Of a DNA stretch of 64,000 nucleotides, positions 1,797-64,000 are shown in pieces. The stretch's first letter is position 1. Each line of letters starts with the position of its first letter. This DNA comes from Octopus sinensis (lineage: Eukaryota): NCBI RefSeq assembly GCF_006345805.1, contig NC_043001.1:29512001-29576000 (forward strand). The letters are read 5' to 3'. The position numbers were made by a program.

Positions 1797-4700
1797 GGAA
1801 AGACTATGGAAAAAGTTGCAAGATGCAATGAAAATTTTAGGAAAATAAAAAGATGAAATAAGTGGAAATTTTACTGGTGAGTGTGTTAAATAATAAGGCA
1901 CTAAAAGAGAATGACTCTCCCCAGACACAACAGTATAAAGGGAAAGTTTATGAAAATAAACATAAGACGAAAGCAGGTAGTGTACAAACAAACAGATGTA
2001 TTAGTATAGCACTCAGGAATAGAAGAAGTCTTTTACATTTCGAGCCTACGCTCTTCTACAAAAAGATACACAGAAAAAAACAAGGAGAGAAAAAAAATGT
2101 GTGTAGTAGCTAATGATCTATCATGGCGTCTAATATATATATATACTAATATATATATATTTATATATATATATATATATCTTTGTAAGTTTAGCTGAGT
2201 TAGAGGTTAAAATAAACGTTTAAGGGATAGAAGTATCCATTACACTACCACTATATTACCTATATTTAACCATGGGCATACATATGCAAACATATTATGT
2301 TCATAAGTTATAGGTAAAGACAAGGATAAACATGGGCTTATCACGAATCAAAATTTAAAGAAAACACAAAATGGAGAAGTACTGATGAACAACAATTGAC
2401 TTACATCAATTATCATTCATTTATTCAATACAAATAGAATGCATCCCATCTAACAGCTGTTTCTGTATGGTATTGCCATTGATATGCACAAATACATAAA
2501 ATATTAATCATATTTTGTAATAAAACTGATCTGAAACAAGGAGCTTCATCAGAGTGAAGAATAAATAAAGAAGAAGAGTATAGAGAGGAAAAAGGGAAAG
2601 GTTGAGTATGGTTGTAATCATACCATTTTGCTTGTTCATCTCTTAATATTTATTCCATAATATGGATCTTTTTGGTTTGAATGGCAGTTTTTTTCTAGTG
2701 GTGTCATATGAAATTGTCACCCATAATTATGACCCTAGAATCGATCTATTGCATTTCAATCTCTTTTAGGATTAGGGTTAGGGGTGGGGGGAAGGGTATC
2801 TTTTTTTCTTCACAAATGTAAATAAACCCAATCAGTTTCTTAAATGAGGGACATATTCATATGGCACAGAATGTTTTTTTTTACCTCAATAGATGCCATT
2901 GATTGGTTGAAATTGCAGAAATTGAAGAAAAAAACCAACAAATATCTTACAAACTATAGAATTTTCTCAATAAAGCCAAGAGAAAAAGATGTTTTATAAA
3001 CACATTCTACCAGTATACGAAGTTTAAAATTTTTTAGTTACCTAGAAATTATGTTAAAAACCTGCCGTTCAAACCAAAAAGATCCCATAATATTATTTTT
3101 TTAAATCTAATGTTTAATATCCGAAGCGTTTTAGGGCCCCTAACAAAACACACCATCTTCCTATTCATTTATTTATTTATCTTACCTTGTATAACGGTCT
3201 CAATAGCTGGTCTTTAGTTTTTAAATTTCAACTGACCATTTACATCAAACGCTGGACCTTGGCCTATCTCACTTCGGACAACAGGTGGAAAGGCTTAACC
3301 ACCTACTTGCAAATCAAATTGCATTTAACCAAATAGCACTTTATTATGAGTAATACTATTAATTAGTGCTACAAACAACTATTATAAATTATTATGATTA
3401 ATATAAAACCTTACTGTATCAAAACCCCTTCCCTGACTAAAACCTATTGCTCTATCCCACTATATTTTTTAAAATTTTTTTTTATTTATCCATCCTATCC
3501 CCCCACCCCTGTACAAAGGATTAACCCACCAATTGCTATTTTGGTTTAGTCTTTTACTTAATGGCCCAAAGAGACACAAGCAAAATGGTATGATTGCAAC
3601 CATATTCAACTTTTCCCTTTTTTCTCTCTATGCTCTTCCTCTTTATTTATTTTTCACTTTGATGAAGCTCCTTGTTTCAGATCGGTTTTATTACGAAATA
3701 TGATTAATATTTTACATATTTGTGCATATCAATGGCAACACTGGAAGCAGAAACAGCTGTTAGATGGGAGGCAGTCTATTTGCCTTGAATTAATTAATAA
3801 TAATTGATGTAAGTCAATTGTTGTTCATCAGTACTTCTCCGTTTTCTATTTTCTTATCTTATATATATATATACACACACAAGTACACATATGCACATAA
3901 TGCATACATGCACACACACATATACATATACACACATGCCTTCTTTTATGCAAATTTTAACAGCTATTTTTCCATACCTGGATATTTGGATGGTTCTACT
4001 ATTGTTATCAAATAGCTATATAAAACAAATAAATATAAAGAATAGTAATATTTTGTTTTGTGTGTGTGTTAAACAAAAACAACTTACGGTAAATGTAGTT
4101 AGAAACATATTTGGTTTCTTCAAGGTATCAGTAAGTGAAACTACGCCTGTCAATTTGTCTATTTGAAAGAATGACAAAGCTGGATATTTTCCAGTTAGTT
4201 TATAGTGTATGGATTTACCCTGCAAAAAGATAAAATAATACAAAAATACAGAGGGAAAGGTTAAATTTAGTGAATGCAAAAATATTTCTGATGACACAAC
4301 ATTACTTATTAAGTAAAAATTATTCTGTAGTTTTAAGAATAAACTATGTTTTATGTTAAAGAGCATGAGAAATATGAAGGACTTAAATCATTCACATAAC
4401 ATGATTGAAGACCCGACAAATGAAGAGAGTTCATGGCTCACAGCATGGCCTGCTGTGCTAGCCTTGGATCATAGAGTGACCCACTGTTCTTGAGGAGACC
4501 TATTGAGTCAAGTACGTCAACACCAACATCAAAATGAAAATCAAATGGAAATTGTAATTAAGAGACCCATGCTGGTGACACGTAAAAAGCACTGTCTGAA
4601 CGGAGCAGATGCCAGCACTGCTTGACTGGCATCTATGTCGGTGACACGTAAAAGCACCAACTGATCATGGCTGTTTGCAAGCCTCCTCTGACCCCTGTGC

Positions 4701-61134: not shown

Positions 61135-64000
61135 GCGACAGGCTTCTTTCAGTTTCCATCTACCAAATCCACTCACAAGGCTTTGGTCGGCCCGAAGCTA
61201 TAGTAGAAGACACTTGCCCAAGGTGCCACACAGTGGGACTGAACCCGGAACCATGTGGTTGGTAAGCAAGCTCTGGTTTGTAAATATTTCTTTGCTTTGT
61301 TCATTTCATAGTCATTCTAACATTCTAAACAATGAATCTGTCATCCTAACATTCTAAACAATGAATCTGTCATTCTAACATTCTAAGCAATGAATCTGAC
61401 ATTCTAACATTCTTAGCAATGAATCTGTCATTCTAACATTCTAAGCAATGAATCTGACATTCTAACATTCTAAACAATGAATCTGTCATTCTAACATTCT
61501 AAACAATGAATCTGACATTCTAACATTCTAAACAATGAATCTGACATTCTAACATTCTAAACAATGAATCTGTCATTCTAACATTCTAAGCAATGAATCT
61601 GACATTCTAACATTCTAAACAATGAATCTGTCATTCTAACATTCTAAGCAATGAATCTGTCATTTTAAATGGGCATATAATTATTTATATATTTAACCCT
61701 TTAGCATTCTGATTATTCTGTCAAATGTAATGCTTATATATTCATATTGTTTTGAATTAATCAAGCTTGTAGCTTTAAGATTTCTATGATGTTGATTCTA
61801 TAGTTTTAGAATTATATTCTGTGATAGGTGTCAGAGGCCAGATCTGGCGAGTTTGAGCATAAAACAGGTGGAATATTTGAGCCAGATATGGTCAGTTTAA
61901 ATGCTAAAGGGTTAAAAGATAGAAATTAATAGAAATAACCTGAGATGCTTAAAGACATAAGAAAAAAGAGAGGGAGAAATAGTAGAGGAAAATAGAGAAA
62001 GAAAGTGTAATTAACACTAGAGACTTTCCTCTACCTAGATAAGTAATTTTCAAATGCTTAAATTCAATAAGCATGCCTATAAATAATTGAGTCTGCCTTT
62101 ACATATTTACGTGTTGCAAAATATCCACTGGCCTATGGCAACAATCCTGTCTAACAAACTGTGCTTGAAAACATTTTGTCTAGATATATTATTTTCCAAT
62201 GGATTCCATAGAAAATCAGTATTTCTTTTTCATCTTCTTCTTCTTCTTCCTATGCCTCATCATCATCAACGAAGAAGATGAAGAAGACGAAGAAGAAGAC
62301 GAAGAAGACGAAAAAGAAGAAGAAGGAGGAGGAGGAGGAGGAGGAGAAGAAGAAGAAGGAGGAGGAGGAGGGGTAAGAGAAGGAGGAGAAGAAGAAGAAG
62401 AAGGAGAAGGAGGAGGAGGAGGAGAAGAAGAAGAAGAAGAAGACAAAGAAGAAGAAGAAGAAGAAGAAGAAGAAGAAGAAGAAGAAGAAGAAGAAGAAGA
62501 CGACAACTCAACACATGAAGCAGCAGTTTAATAATTTATCAAACTCGACAATTTAATTTCAACAATCAAATGTTTAGATTATTCTAATGATAACAATAAC
62601 GACTTGTTGATTATAGCATTCTATCATAAATATTGAGACTGAGATTAAATAATTAAATAAGAACTATTTACCTTGAATGTGTCTTCAACTGACGATGAAA
62701 GAGAATTCTTTATTGATACATCTCCTGTAGTGGGGGATATTGTAAAATACACAGCAGCTAATCCATCACCAGTAATTGCATAGGTGATTGTTCGAAAAGG
62801 TAACTTGAAAAAAAGAAAAACAATTGTATAAATAGAATTGTATGTTTACAAATGAAAGTAAAGAGCAATCAAAATGAGGTACAAAGTCTATATTTATTGA
62901 AAATCAGTTGATGATTCCCTACAGTGCTAACAGAGTTTTATGTATGTTATATGTGTGAGACTGTCTTTCCACACATCACCCTGAGATGTACTTGGACACA
63001 CCATTAGTGATGTTTTGGATCTTTCAACATCAGACACCTCCACCAAAGTGACTCAGAACTGTCACTAGCTATCCTTAAATCCTTAGAAATGTTTTAGTAT
63101 TGAAGTGCCTTCAGGTCCTGTGTATGCAGGCTGAGGTGCATTTGTAAGCTAATAGTGCAGTGCTTGAAATTTTCCAGCATTAAACTGCATATTGCTTTGT
63201 TCAGCCCACATGTATATTGCTCTTAGATCCCACTAAAAGCTTGTAATATTGTCAGGGTTCTTTATGGGCTGTGATAATTTCATCATCAGTGGTGCCCCAG
63301 CATGGCCGTGGCCTTTGGGCTAAAACATTTCTAAGGATTTAAGGATAGCTAATGACAGTTCTGAGTCACTTTGGTGGAGGTGTCTGATGTTGAAAGATCC
63401 AAAACATCACTAATGGTGTGTCCAAGTACATCTCAGGGTGATGTGTGGATACATACATAGGACAGACTTCTAGGAGAAGACACTTGCCCAAGGTGCCACA
63501 CAGTGGGACTGAACATTGAACCATGTGATTGGGAACCAAGCTTCTTAGCACACAGCCATGCCCGCACCTATATATATATATATATGGCCGTTTGCCAGCT
63601 CTGTCTGGCAACCGTGTCGGTGGCACGTAAAAGCACCATCCGTTCGCGTCCGTTGCCAGCCTCAGCTGGCCCCCGTGCCGGTGACACGTAAAAGCACCAT
63701 CCGTTCGTGGCCGTTTGCCAGCTCTGTCTGGCCCCGTGTCAGTGGCACGTAAAAGCACCATCCGTCCGTGTCCGTTGCCAGCCTCGGCTGGCCCCCGTGC
63801 CGGTGACACGTAAAAGCACCGTCCGCTCGTGGCCGTTTGCCAGCTCTGTCTGGCAACCGTGTCAGTGGCATGTAAAAGCACCATCCGTTCGCGTCCGTTG
63901 CCAGCCTTGGCTGGCCCCCGTGCCGGTGACACGTAAAAGCACCGTCCGTTCGTGGCCGGTTGCCAGCTCTGTCTGGCCCCGTGTCGGTGGCACGTAAAAG

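What the first reader, a model, noticed from the sequence alone, without database searches (positions are those of the whole stretch)
4088..62803. Giant cadherin built entirely from phase 0-0 half-domain exons
Seen: all 29 exons have lengths divisible by 3 and all 28 introns are phase 0; short (38-49 aa) and long (58-64 aa) exons strictly alternate, so each about 103-aa repeat uses two exons. Established: clustered protocadherins, the known expanded family in octopus, typically encode their ectodomain in one large exon, so this is a different architecture. Inference: any exon or exon pair can be skipped or duplicated without frameshift, giving a substrate for combinatorial ectodomain-length isoforms and domain accordion evolution. 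No isoform evidence is visible in the DNA.
Basis: partly seen in the sequence, partly recalled or inferred. Interest (0 to 1): 0.7.

Follow-up and report, generated by a model that had tools for sequence, protein, structure and literature searches.

The report
Repeat-built cadherin gene, two exons per repeat
The window holds part of a very large animal gene for a chain of cadherin adhesion domains, in which every repeat is encoded by one short and one long in-frame exon; this regular layout is real but is the ordinary legacy of an ancient tandem duplication.

Summary
On the minus strand, 62803 to 4088, lie 29 cadherin-coding exons. Short exons (38-49 aa) and long ones (58-64 aa) alternate strictly. 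All lengths are multiples of three, and all 28 introns are best read as phase 0. The gene runs off both window ends.

It is not Fat, Dachsous, CDH23 or a clustered protocadherin. It belongs to a mollusc/nemertean family of giant cadherins that pipelines name "protocadherin Fat 4-like". In this family the calcium-binding linker DxNDN and the LDRE motif are replaced by V-x-(R/K)-N-x3-P-x-F.

The exons are out of register with the domains. The short exon holds the middle of a repeat. The long exon holds the end of one repeat, the linker and the start of the next. Only short+long pairs could be removed without breaking a fold.

Repeats within the window are at most 43% identical to each other, against 72-98% to the nearest database protein. 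The uniform phase is therefore inherited from one old two-exon unit.

That database protein lacks 11 of the 29 exons, with breaks exactly at exon borders. Its origin is unknown, and it looks like a model that drops exons. Isoform use remains untested.

The parts
62672..62803 (-). exon 1, short, 44 aa
   Evidence: aag|..|gtaaat. External profile E 1.6e-13. Leave-one-out E 9.5e-10. 97.7% identical to P0025.
60643..60816 (-). exon 2, long, 58 aa
   Evidence: tag|..|gtaagt. External profile E 1e-13. Leave-one-out E 8.6e-10. 86% identical to P0025.
58661..58789 (-). exon 3, short, 43 aa (weakest call)
   Evidence: cag|..|gtaagt. External profile E 5.4e-4. Leave-one-out E 4.1, not significant. Absent from P0025.
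57899..58078 (-). exon 4, long, 60 aa
   Evidence: External profile E 5.3e-15. Leave-one-out E 1.1e-11. 84.7% identical to P0025.
55502..55648 (-). exon 5, short, 49 aa (donor gttagt; a 48-aa alternative exists)
   Evidence: P0025 reads ...KFV|LRVV, which favours 49 aa. External profile E 8.3e-11. Leave-one-out E 4.4e-5.
52912..53097 (-). exon 6, long, 62 aa
   Evidence: External profile E 4.4e-23. Leave-one-out E 3.1e-16. 87.1% identical to P0025.
49365..49493 (-). exon 7, short, 43 aa
   Evidence: External profile E 1e-14. Leave-one-out E 1.1e-11. 88.4% identical to P0025.
48298..48474 (-). exon 8, long, 59 aa
   Evidence: External profile E 8.2e-13. Leave-one-out E 7.5e-9. 86.4% identical to P0025.
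45288..45416 (-). exon 9, short, 43 aa
   Evidence: External profile E 1.4e-11. Leave-one-out E 7.4e-7. 72.1% identical to P0025.
42846..43019 (-). exon 10, long, 58 aa
   Evidence: External profile E 3.7e-18. Leave-one-out E 1.5e-14. 81% identical to P0025.
41415..41549 (-). exon 11, short, 45 aa
   Evidence: External profile E 2.1e-8. Leave-one-out E 9.1e-6. 81.8% identical to P0025.
39870..40058 (-). exon 12, long, 63 aa
   Evidence: External profile E 1e-22. Leave-one-out E 5.6e-17. 87.3% identical to P0025.
37711..37836 (-). exon 13, short, 42 aa
   Evidence: External profile E 1.6e-6. Leave-one-out E 6.2e-5. Absent from P0025.
36851..37033 (-). exon 14, long, 61 aa
   Evidence: External profile E 3.2e-18. 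Leave-one-out E 6.2e-16. 83.6% identical to P0025.
36150..36263 (-). exon 15, short, 38 aa
   Evidence: External profile E 4.5e-4. Leave-one-out E 5.7e-5. Absent from P0025.
32841..33023 (-). exon 16, long, 61 aa
   Evidence: External profile E 7.8e-18. Leave-one-out E 2e-9. Absent from P0025.
31298..31423 (-). exon 17, short, 42 aa
   Evidence: External profile E 5.1e-12. Leave-one-out E 1.3e-9. Absent from P0025.
27258..27437 (-). exon 18, long, 60 aa (donor gtacga)
   Evidence: External profile E 1.3e-10. Leave-one-out E 9.2e-8. Absent from P0025.
24475..24594 (-). exon 19, short, 40 aa (a 39-aa alternative donor exists)
   Evidence: External profile E 2.7e-6. Leave-one-out E 8.1e-4. Absent from P0025.
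21321..21497 (-). exon 20, long, 59 aa
   Evidence: External profile E 3.2e-8. Leave-one-out E 0.0038. Absent from P0025.
19714..19836 (-). exon 21, short, 41 aa
   Evidence: External profile E 2.9e-13. Leave-one-out E 2.4e-13. 85.4% identical to P0025.
17654..17836 (-). exon 22, long, 61 aa
   Evidence: External profile E 1.9e-23. Leave-one-out E 8.8e-20. 90% identical to P0025.
17200..17500 (-). partial copy of exon 24 (its 3' 106 nt plus the start of intron 24), lying inside intron 22
   Evidence: 82% identity over 301 nt to 12488-12788. It is the only one of 228 intra-window repeat pairs that touches an exon; the frame is open, and in-frame AG and GT sites would give a 30-aa piece. Long-exon profile E 4.6e-5.
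14674..14805 (-). exon 23, short, 44 aa
   Evidence: Pfam Cadherin model positions 37-71, E 7.5e-5. External profile E 7.8e-7. Absent from P0025.
12683..12865 (-). exon 24, long, 61 aa
   Evidence: Pfam Cadherin model positions 67-93 at its start. External profile E 5.5e-19. Absent from P0025.
11688..11813 (-). exon 25, short, 42 aa
   Evidence: External profile E 1.1e-9. Leave-one-out E 7.2e-4. 90.5% identical to P0025.
10317..10499 (-). exon 26, long, 61 aa
   Evidence: Pfam Cadherin model positions 1-26 in its second half. External profile E 9.4e-22. 88.5% identical to P0025.
8737..8865 (-). exon 27, short, 43 aa
   Evidence: External profile E 3.2e-12. Leave-one-out E 3e-10. 88.4% identical to P0025.
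5991..6182 (-). exon 28, long, 64 aa (or 6027-6182, 52 aa, with donor gtaaga)
   Evidence: P0025 matches only the first 51 aa and then changes. External profile E 2.8e-11.
4088..4219 (-). exon 29, short, 44 aa
   Evidence: Pfam Cadherin model positions 29-70. External profile E 8.7e-9. Absent from P0025.

Best explanation
The window is an internal stretch of about 59 kb, on the minus strand, of a much larger gene. The gene encodes a giant single-chain array of extracellular cadherin (EC) repeats.

Family. The gene belongs to a family seen in molluscs and a nemertean that annotation pipelines call 'protocadherin Fat 4-like'. Members are made of cadherin repeats only. Complete members end in one transmembrane helix and a short conserved tail.

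Exon layout. Each repeat of about 103 aa is encoded by a fixed two-exon unit.
- The short exon carries the central part of the repeat. By recalled strand positions this is strands C-E.
- The long exon carries the last part of that repeat (strands F-G), the inter-repeat linker, and the first part of the next repeat (strands A-B).
- Both introns of the unit are phase 0.
- The unit was multiplied by old tandem duplications. The 28 phase-0 introns are therefore copies of about two ancestral introns. The 29 exons are most likely spliced constitutively into a regular rod of 14.5 repeats.

Linkers (inferred). The linkers lack the DxNDN and LDRE calcium ligands and carry a conserved basic residue followed by Asn. 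They keep the DxD and A-x-D acidic residues. They probably bind at most one calcium ion instead of three, which would change the stiffness of the chain.

Practical consequence. Any exon can be lost from a gene model without a frameshift, so automated models of such genes can be silently wrong.
For: Exon set, borders and phase:
- See, as laid out in the observation check.
- P0025 joins 18 of the exons exactly at the called borders. There are 17 junctions, 13 of them between neighbouring exons.

Cadherin identity:
- Single exons give Pfam Cadherin hits with E from 7.5e-5 to 0.076.
- P0025 scores Cadherin E 2.1e-177.
- 59 distinct PDB cadherin sequences match P0025 at E <= 1e-10. The best is CELSR1, 8vy2_A, at 2.3e-57.

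Family:
- The closest named proteins to P0025 residues 637-1580 are mollusc and Tubulanus 'protocadherin Fat 4-like' proteins at 26-32% identity. Their precomputed Pfam lists hold cadherin-type models only.
- Pfam scans of P0181 and P0177 show no EGF or laminin G domain.

Linker type:
- None of the 14 window linkers has D-x-N-D.
- 10 of 14 have a basic residue before the Asn position (R in 7, K in 3). 8 of 14 have Asn at that position.
- Each Asp of DxD is present in 10 of 14. The A-x-D Asp is present in 12 of 14. The I-x-E position is acidic in 10 of 14.
- Only 1 of 15 short exons has an LDRx-like site, which is exon 23 with LDRD.
- 20 family members (18 first-listed plus P0026 and P0049) have 0-3 D.ND..P motifs against 8-36 RN-type linkers. 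The six canonical cadherins checked (P0024, P0027, P0190, P0060, P0004, P0006) show the reverse.
- The CELSR1 alignment shows '...vnvr.rnpntpif' opposite 'vtvsdtndhspvf'.

Age of the repeats:
- Paralogous exons are at most 43% identical. Identity to P0025 is 72-98%.
- No exon-bearing DNA repeat exists apart from one 301-nt piece.

Regular rod:
- In 18 checked relatives other than P0042 and P0049, spacing between long segments is 90-125 aa in nearly all intervals. Intervals under 80 aa number 0-1 per protein. The window's 29-exon path matches this.

Membrane anchor:
- 7 relatives have one C-terminal hydrophobic helix. 6 of them share tail motifs.
Against: - No transcript evidence was available, so constitutive splicing is an inference.
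- The only close database protein, P0025, does not contain 11 of the 29 exons. This could mean real skipping or a real difference between species.
- Exon 3 fails the leave-one-out test.
- The calcium-site reading rests on motif counts and on recalled assignments of ligand residues. No structure was predicted or solved.
- The window holds neither end of the gene. The membrane anchor and the absence of EGF and laminin G domains are taken from relatives that are only about 30% identical.
- The organism is not known.
Confidence: 0.7

Rival explanations
1. One reading: the phase 0-0 exons are used combinatorially, so that skipping exons or exon pairs gives ectodomains of different lengths.
For: - All 29 exons are symmetric, so any skip keeps the frame.
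- P0025 joins 2|4, 12|14, 14|21 and 22|25 exactly at exon borders.
- Two of these omissions (exons 15-20 and 23-24) are in-register short+long blocks that would leave whole chimeric domains.
Against: - P0025 also omits single short exons (3 and 13). Past exon 28 it strings long segments directly together, which cannot form cadherin folds.
- 8 of its 28 spacings are under 80 aa, against 0-1 per protein in 18 checked relatives other than P0042 and P0049.
- The seven short exons it lacks include the five least conserved ones, as expected from a prediction that misses weak exons.
- All 29 exons have strong splice sites.
- The origin of P0025 is unknown, and no reads were examined.
Confidence: 0.12
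2. The repeat number truly differs between species. The species behind P0025 has lost blocks of repeats (exons 15-20 and 23-24), an 'accordion' acting on the two-exon unit.
For: - The missing blocks are in register.
- The window exons concerned are old, not recent gains. Their best paralogue identity is 32-43%.
- A partial copy of exon 24 in intron 22 shows that intragenic rearrangement has happened near one of the break points.
- Family members differ widely in repeat count, with 8-40 long segments. Many of these models are partial.
Against: - Gaps or missed exons in the source of P0025 would give the same picture.
- No genomic locus of another animal could be fetched, because the contig collection on offer holds bacteria and archaea only.
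Confidence: 0.25
3. It is an orthologue of a classical giant cadherin (Fat/Fat4, Dachsous or CDH23), as the automated names of its relatives suggest.
For: - Relatives are named 'protocadherin Fat 4-like', 'Fat 1-like' and 'cadherin-23-like' by pipelines.
- Fat, CDH23 and CELSR proteins appear as more distant hits.
Against: - Canonical Fat proteins in the same searches carry 19-26 D.ND..P and 20-26 LDRE-type motifs plus EGF and laminin G domains. This family has 0-3 and 0-2 of the motifs and neither domain.
- Identity to Fat proteins is 22-27%.
Confidence: 0.04
4. The exon series is a decaying pseudogene or a chance array of open frames.
For: - Exon 3 is weakly conserved.
- Exon 28 has lost the DxD motif.
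Against: - All 29 frames are open and have consensus splice sites.
- All 29 rank above all other ORFs with external profiles. No plus-strand ORF scores better than E 0.13.
- Identity to P0025 is 72-98%.
Confidence: 0.02

Closest known systems
Mollusc and nemertean proteins auto-named 'protocadherin Fat 4-like' (for example Haliotis rubra P0174/P0175, Gigantopelta aegis P0177, Aplysia californica P0181, Patella vulgata P0028, Tubulanus polymorphus P0032)
   Same: - The repeat type is the same, with V-x-(R/K)-N-x3-P-x-F linkers, almost no DxNDN or LDRE, and DxD retained.
- Repeats have the same period of about 103-108 aa.
- Pfam finds cadherin-type domains only.
- They are the best named hits.
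   Different: - Identity is only 26-32%.
- Their names are automated and no study of the family was found.
- Their exon layouts could not be examined.
- The window lacks the part that would show the shared transmembrane helix and tail.
Octopus bimaculoides cadherin with 77 EC domains, highly expressed in suckers (Wang & Ragsdale 2017, as cited in passages of PMC6339937, and PMC6062618)
   Same: It is a very large, many-repeat, non-protocadherin cadherin reported from a cephalopod.
   Different: - Whether it is this gene, a paralogue or unrelated could not be tested. The primary paper is not held, and no named cephalopod protein matched closely.
- The longest proteins in my search (over 6000 aa) have canonical linkers.
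Fat / Fat4 and Dachsous
   Same: They are giant type-I cadherins with about 27-34 repeats. Fat has a variable exon number (passages of PMC3620549).
   Different: - They have canonical calcium motifs.
- Fat has EGF and laminin G domains.
- Ca-free linkers occur there only at particular positions (passages of PMC8325961).
CDH23 / PCDH15 (tip-link cadherins)
   Same: - They have long chains of repeats and are multi-exon genes (recalled).
- Some of their linkers are partial Ca-free linkers that give flexibility (passages of PMC8325961).
- Three relatives of this family end in T-T-[IML]-L, which resembles a PDZ ligand (the comparison is recalled).
   Different: - Here nearly every linker is non-canonical, not just a few.
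- Sequence similarity is remote.
Clustered protocadherins of cephalopods and vertebrates
   Same: They belong to the cadherin superfamily.
   Different: - They have 5-7 repeats.
- Cephalopods diversify them by whole-gene duplication, not by splicing (passages of PMC9068888).
- A large first exon encodes all the repeats (recalled abstract of Wang & Ragsdale 2017, not seen).
Repeat genes with in-frame exon units (fibrillar collagens, nebulin, titin) - recalled, not from any call
   Same: A periodic exon structure was produced by tandem duplication of an exon unit. All exons are symmetric, so skips stay in frame.
   Different: The folds differ. In those genes exon skipping is documented. Here it is not.

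Membership tests
Cadherin superfamily | Tandem extracellular cadherin (EC) repeats recognised by the Cadherin domain model (PF00028) | tested here: met
   - Single-exon ORFs hit PF00028 at E from 7.5e-5 to 0.076, each covering the expected part of the model.
- The near-orthologue P0025 scores E 2.1e-177 with 16 stretches.
- P0025 matches 59 solved cadherin sequences at E <= 1e-10.
Cadherin superfamily | Canonical calcium-binding motif set at each linker (xEx, LDRE, DxNDNxPxF, DxD) | tested here: not met
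   - DxND is present in 0 of 14 linkers.
- An LDRx-like site is present in 1 of 15 short exons.
- Each Asp of DxD is present in 10 of 14.
- The xEx position is acidic in 10 of 14.
Fat / Fat-like cadherins | EGF and laminin G domains between the EC array and the membrane | tested here: inconclusive
   The window ends before the C-terminal part. Relatives with a transmembrane helix (P0181, P0177) have neither domain. The precomputed Pfam lists of the other family members show none either.
Fat / Fat-like cadherins | Canonical DxNDN and LDRE linkers in most repeats | tested here: not met
   Fat proteins P0190 and P0060 have 19-26 D.ND..P and 20-26 LDRE-type motifs. P0025 and the window have none.
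Clustered protocadherins | About 6-7 EC repeats encoded together in one large exon | tested here: not met
   There are at least 14.5 repeats in 29 exons. The defining feature itself is recalled. The passages I saw say only 'multi-exonic'.
Lophotrochozoan 'Fat 4-like' giant cadherins with R/K-N linkers (informal group defined here) | Repeats of about 103-108 aa with a V-x-(R/K)-N-x3-P-x-F linker, DxD retained, and almost no DxNDN or LDRE | tested here: met
   - The window has a basic residue in 10 of 14 linkers, Asn in 8 of 14, Pro in 12 of 14 and Phe in 13 of 14.
- Family members have 8-36 such linkers.
- Profiles built from family segments recover all 29 exons.
Lophotrochozoan 'Fat 4-like' giant cadherins with R/K-N linkers (informal group defined here) | A single C-terminal transmembrane helix and a conserved tail (PPSFL..EYETQSL..VPPDE..LGEINMNF, then NP[IV]Y) | not testable with these tools
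   These features are seen in 6 relatives. The window and P0025 both end before this region.
Octopus 77-EC sucker cadherin | Sequence identity with the described gene, and 77 EC repeats | not testable with these tools
   Only secondary citations were seen. No sequence or accession was available.

The most novel reading that the evidence does not exclude
The gene represents an undescribed lophotrochozoan class of giant membrane cadherins. In this class essentially every inter-repeat linker has given up two of the three calcium sites. A built-in Arg/Lys at the linker would take the place of the lost cations, giving a long adhesion or tether rod whose stiffness is largely independent of calcium. 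In addition, its phase-0 two-exon unit would really be used, in evolution or in splicing, to add and remove whole repeats in register. The in-register absence of exons 15-20 and 23-24 from the nearest database protein hints at this.
Probability: 0.15. Interest if true: 0.65.

Novelty: new variant of a known kind. Interest (0 to 1): 0.35.

Why it matters
- **Annotation.** A gene in which every exon is symmetric can lose exons from a model without any frameshift warning. The nearest database protein differs from this locus by 11 whole exons. Giant cadherins of molluscs may be widely mis-modelled and mis-named as 'Fat 4-like'.
- **Cadherin biology.** A whole family with near-uniform non-canonical linkers would be a natural test case for how calcium sites set the mechanics of cadherin chains. 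Ca-free linkers are otherwise known as local exceptions.
The exon register gives a concrete, testable rule. Only short+long pairs can be removed without destroying a fold. Long-read data can therefore separate functional length isoforms from noise.

Tried and rejected
Searches and calls that failed or gave nothing:
I scanned the first 150 of 405 minus-strand ORFs instead. I dropped the other two batches once in-window profiles worked.
- My first motif scan for canonical cadherin motifs found almost nothing. This turned out to be informative, because the motifs really are absent.
- A 'longer' search with exon 6 reached only proteins of up to 2000 aa and found generic cadherins at 40% identity or less.
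- A 'longer' search with the alignment of long exons found no close relative either. The best was 53% identical to exon 6. A local BLAST of all 29 exons against all 395 fetched proteins other than P0025 gave at most 54%.
Proteins above 4906 aa that resemble P0025 therefore stayed unsearched by word index.
- Rfam gave no match.

Literature:
- No paper holds 'cadherin repeat' + 'intron phase' + 'exon'.
- The searches found no description of this family or of its exon layout.
- Four papers were not held.
- Supplements were not consulted, as they are closed.

Steps considered and left out:
- I did not build, print or search the joined 29-exon protein. No fold was therefore made of the window's own repeats.
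- I did not run a structure prediction of a fragment of a relative. Without an alignment the model would probably be poor, and coordinates are not returned.

Ideas rejected:
- A recent accordion is rejected.
- A plus-strand gene or other genes in the window are rejected. The ORFs of 120 aa or more are exon-containing frames, repeats or low-complexity tracts.

Full report
**What is in the sequence.** The window has no N runs and no Rfam match. It is AT-rich and repeat-rich. A first scan for textbook cadherin motifs found almost nothing. A wider scan found A-x-D-x-G-x-P motifs only on the minus strand. At 4088 the minus strand reads exon|GTAAGT, and at 4219 it reads a polypyrimidine tract, CAG, then exon. 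The gene therefore runs from high to low coordinates.

**Finding the exons.**
- tblastn with two named cadherins picked up mainly the long exons.
- Iterated profiles seeded from those pieces found 14 long-exon ORFs. Two of the nine seeds were in fact short exons.
- Four seeds found 13 short-exon ORFs.
- The remaining two short exons (3 and 13) appeared only as weak hits in the expected introns.
- For every ORF there is an in-frame acceptor and donor with good consensus. This gives 29 exons from 62803 to 4088.
- The 15 short exons are 38-49 aa and the 14 long exons are 58-64 aa. They alternate strictly, total 1491 aa, and give about 103 aa per pair. Introns are 582-3860 nt.

**Controls.**
- Profiles built only from 479 short-type and 571 long-type segments of 20 relatives from other species place all 29 exons above every other one of the 1564 ORFs of both strands. 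The worst exon has E 5.4e-4. The best non-exon ORF has E 1.5 for the short profile. For the long profile the best are 0.028, which is a fragment of exon 24, and then 0.13. The segments were gathered with window-derived profiles, so this test is not fully independent.
- Leave-one-out profiles recover 28 of 29 exons. Exon 3 fails (E 4.1).
- Within 12 nt of the called sites, frame-keeping alternatives in a non-zero phase exist at 5 of 28 introns. All are weaker on both sides.
- The unnamed protein P0025 tiles 18 of the exons end to end at the called borders. It settles exon 5 at 49 aa and favours a 52-aa form of exon 28.

**Joined model left out.** I did not build or search the joined 29-exon protein. 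All searches from the window used single exons or alignments of exons with each other.

**What the exons encode.** By Pfam coordinates, short exons cover Cadherin model positions of about 29-70. Long exons start at about 67-93 and end at about 1-26 of the next repeat. The exons are therefore out of register with the domains.
- The short exon is the middle of a repeat.
- The long exon is the end of one repeat, the linker, and the start of the next.
- The strand labels C-E and F-G/A-B are recalled, not computed.

The consensus of the long exons is x-x-V-x-A-x-D...T-x-T-x-x-I-x-V-x-R-N-x-x-x-P-x-F...Y-x-x-x-I-x-E...V-x-A-T-D-x-D. The consensus of the short exons is Y-x-I-x-G...F-x-I...G-x-I-x-L-K-x-S-L.

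**Which family.**
- A profile of the 14 long exons, run against 1.84 billion representative proteins, gave 16405 hits at E <= 1e-3.
- Among the best 150, one protein (P0025, 2803 aa, unnamed) is 72-98% identical to 18 exons. All the others are at most 54% identical.
- The named proteins closest to P0025 are 'protocadherin Fat 4-like' predictions from gastropods, bivalves, a chiton and the nemertean Tubulanus, at 26-32% identity. Their Pfam lists hold cadherin-type domains only.
- Pfam scans of two complete relatives show no EGF or laminin G domain.
- These proteins have 0-3 D.ND..P motifs and 0-2 LDRE-type motifs, against 8-36 linkers of the type V-x-V-x-(R/K)-N-x3-P-x-F. The six canonical cadherins checked (P0024, P0027, P0190, P0060, P0004, P0006) show the opposite.
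- Of the best 150 representatives, 11 are of this R/K-N type and 136 are canonical.
- Seven relatives have one C-terminal hydrophobic helix. Six share tail motifs, including NP[IV]Y. Three end in T-T-[IML]-L.

**Linkers in the window**.

| Feature | Count |
|---|---|
| D-x-N-D in the linker | 0 of 14 |
| Basic residue before the Asn position | 10 of 14 |
| Asn at that position | 8 of 14 |
| Pro / Phe of the linker | 12 / 13 of 14 |
| Each Asp of DxD | 10 of 14 |
| Asp of A-x-D | 12 of 14 |
| Acidic residue at I-x-E | 10 of 14 |
| LDRx-like site in short exons | 1 of 15 |

The alignment of P0025 to CELSR1 puts 'r.rnpntp' opposite 'sdtndhsp'. By that alignment the first Asp is deleted, the Asn is kept and the second Asp is lost.

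I recall the ligand sets of classical cadherins as follows. Site 3 uses Asn102, Asp134, Asp136 and Asp195. Sites 1 and 2 need Glu11, Asp67, Glu69 and Asp103. On that basis I infer that at most one calcium site per linker survives.

Complete or partial Ca-free linkers are known as local features that allow bending (passages of PMC8325961). Here they would be the rule.

**How the pattern arose.**
- Exons of the same class within the window are 13-43% identical.
- The window's DNA compared with itself gives 228 repeat pairs. Only one touches an exon.
- The repeats are therefore old, and older than the split from the P0025 species.
- The 28 phase-0 introns are copies of about two ancestral introns. 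The uniform phase is inherited rather than independently selected.
- The one exception to 'old' is a 301-nt copy, 82% identical, of the 3' part of exon 24 plus the start of intron 24. It lies in intron 22.

**The isoform idea.**
- Frame-wise, any exon can be skipped.
- Fold-wise, only an adjacent short+long pair can go.
- P0025 lacks exons 3, 13, 15-20, 23, 24 and 29. Its junctions 2|4, 12|14, 14|21 and 22|25 fall exactly on exon borders.
- Two of these omissions are in register, and two remove a single short exon.
- After exon 28, P0025 strings long segments together.
- 8 of its 28 spacings are under 80 aa, against 0-1 per protein in 18 checked relatives other than P0042 and P0049.
- The seven short exons it lacks include the five with the weakest external-profile scores.

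I read this as a model that silently drops exons. That is itself a consequence of the all-symmetric layout. I cannot exclude real skipping or real loss of repeats in another species. The origin of P0025 is unknown and was not traced.

**What is known.**
- Reviews cite an O. bimaculoides cadherin with 77 (or 'over 70') EC domains that is high in suckers (passages of PMC6339937, and PMC6062618). Whether this is the same gene could not be tested.
- Cephalopod protocadherins are described as multi-exonic and as diversified by gene duplication, not by splicing (passages of PMC6339937, and PMC9068888).
- That their repeats sit in one large first exon is my recollection of an abstract I could not open.
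- Classical cadherin genes have many conserved intron positions (passages of PMC5473995).
- Fat genes vary in exon number (passages of PMC3620549).
- No held paper combines 'cadherin repeat', 'intron phase' and 'exon'. Searches found no description of this family or of its exon layout.
- Supplements are closed and may hold gene lists that bear on this.

**Verdict.**
- The layout differs from protocadherins and is frame-neutral.
- It is the expected product of an old tandem duplication. It is out of register with the domains. There is no evidence here that it is used for isoforms.
- The more unusual feature is the family itself, with its near-uniform non-canonical linkers.
- That the window comes from an octopus stayed unchecked.

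Noticed in passing
window 17200-17500 (-), inside intron 22: A copy of 12488-12788, 82% identical. It holds the last 106 nt of exon 24 plus about 195 nt of intron 24. Its frame is open, and in-frame AG and GT sites could make a 30-aa phase 0-0 cryptic exon. It is the only exon-bearing DNA repeat in the window.
   Followed up: partly
window 50183-50998, intron 6: A purine-rich (GAA/GAG)n tract of about 800 nt (272 copies of a 3-nt unit, 73% matches). It causes the GC-skew spike of 0.455 and several long low-complexity ORFs on both strands.
   Followed up: no
window 6964-7049, 31754-32001, 37949-38117, 46620-46746 and 63585-64000, plus dispersed copies: An interspersed element with an internal tandem unit of 40-66 nt containing GGCACATAAAAACACC. 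It lies in several introns in both orientations. A second dispersed family of about 400-460 nt lies at 277-751, 1289-1654, 20622-21025, 51263-51694, 54395-54823 and 60889-61272.
   Followed up: no
window 61311-61668, intron 1: A minisatellite of 12.3 copies of a 29-nt unit, with 94% matches.
   Followed up: no
relatives P0173, P0177, P0181, P0028, P0183, P0032 (not in the window): Family members with a transmembrane helix share a conserved juxtamembrane and cytoplasmic region (DPWxAL before the helix, then PPSFL..EYETQSL..VPPDE..LGEINMNF and NP[IV]Y). Three of them end in T-T-[IML]-L. No Pfam model covers this region.
   Followed up: partly
protein P0025 residues 1528-1700, and throughout that protein: The nearest database protein has 8 of 28 repeat spacings of 52-63 aa, meaning long segments joined without the short part. 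The unnamed P0042 and P0049 show 4 and 3 such spacings. The other 18 checked relatives show 0-1.
   Followed up: partly
window exon 28 (5991-6182) and exons 2, 8 and 20: Four of the 14 long exons have lost the A-T-D-x-D motif at their end. Exon 28 also has a strong internal donor that would cut it to 52 aa. These repeats may be degenerate.
   Followed up: no
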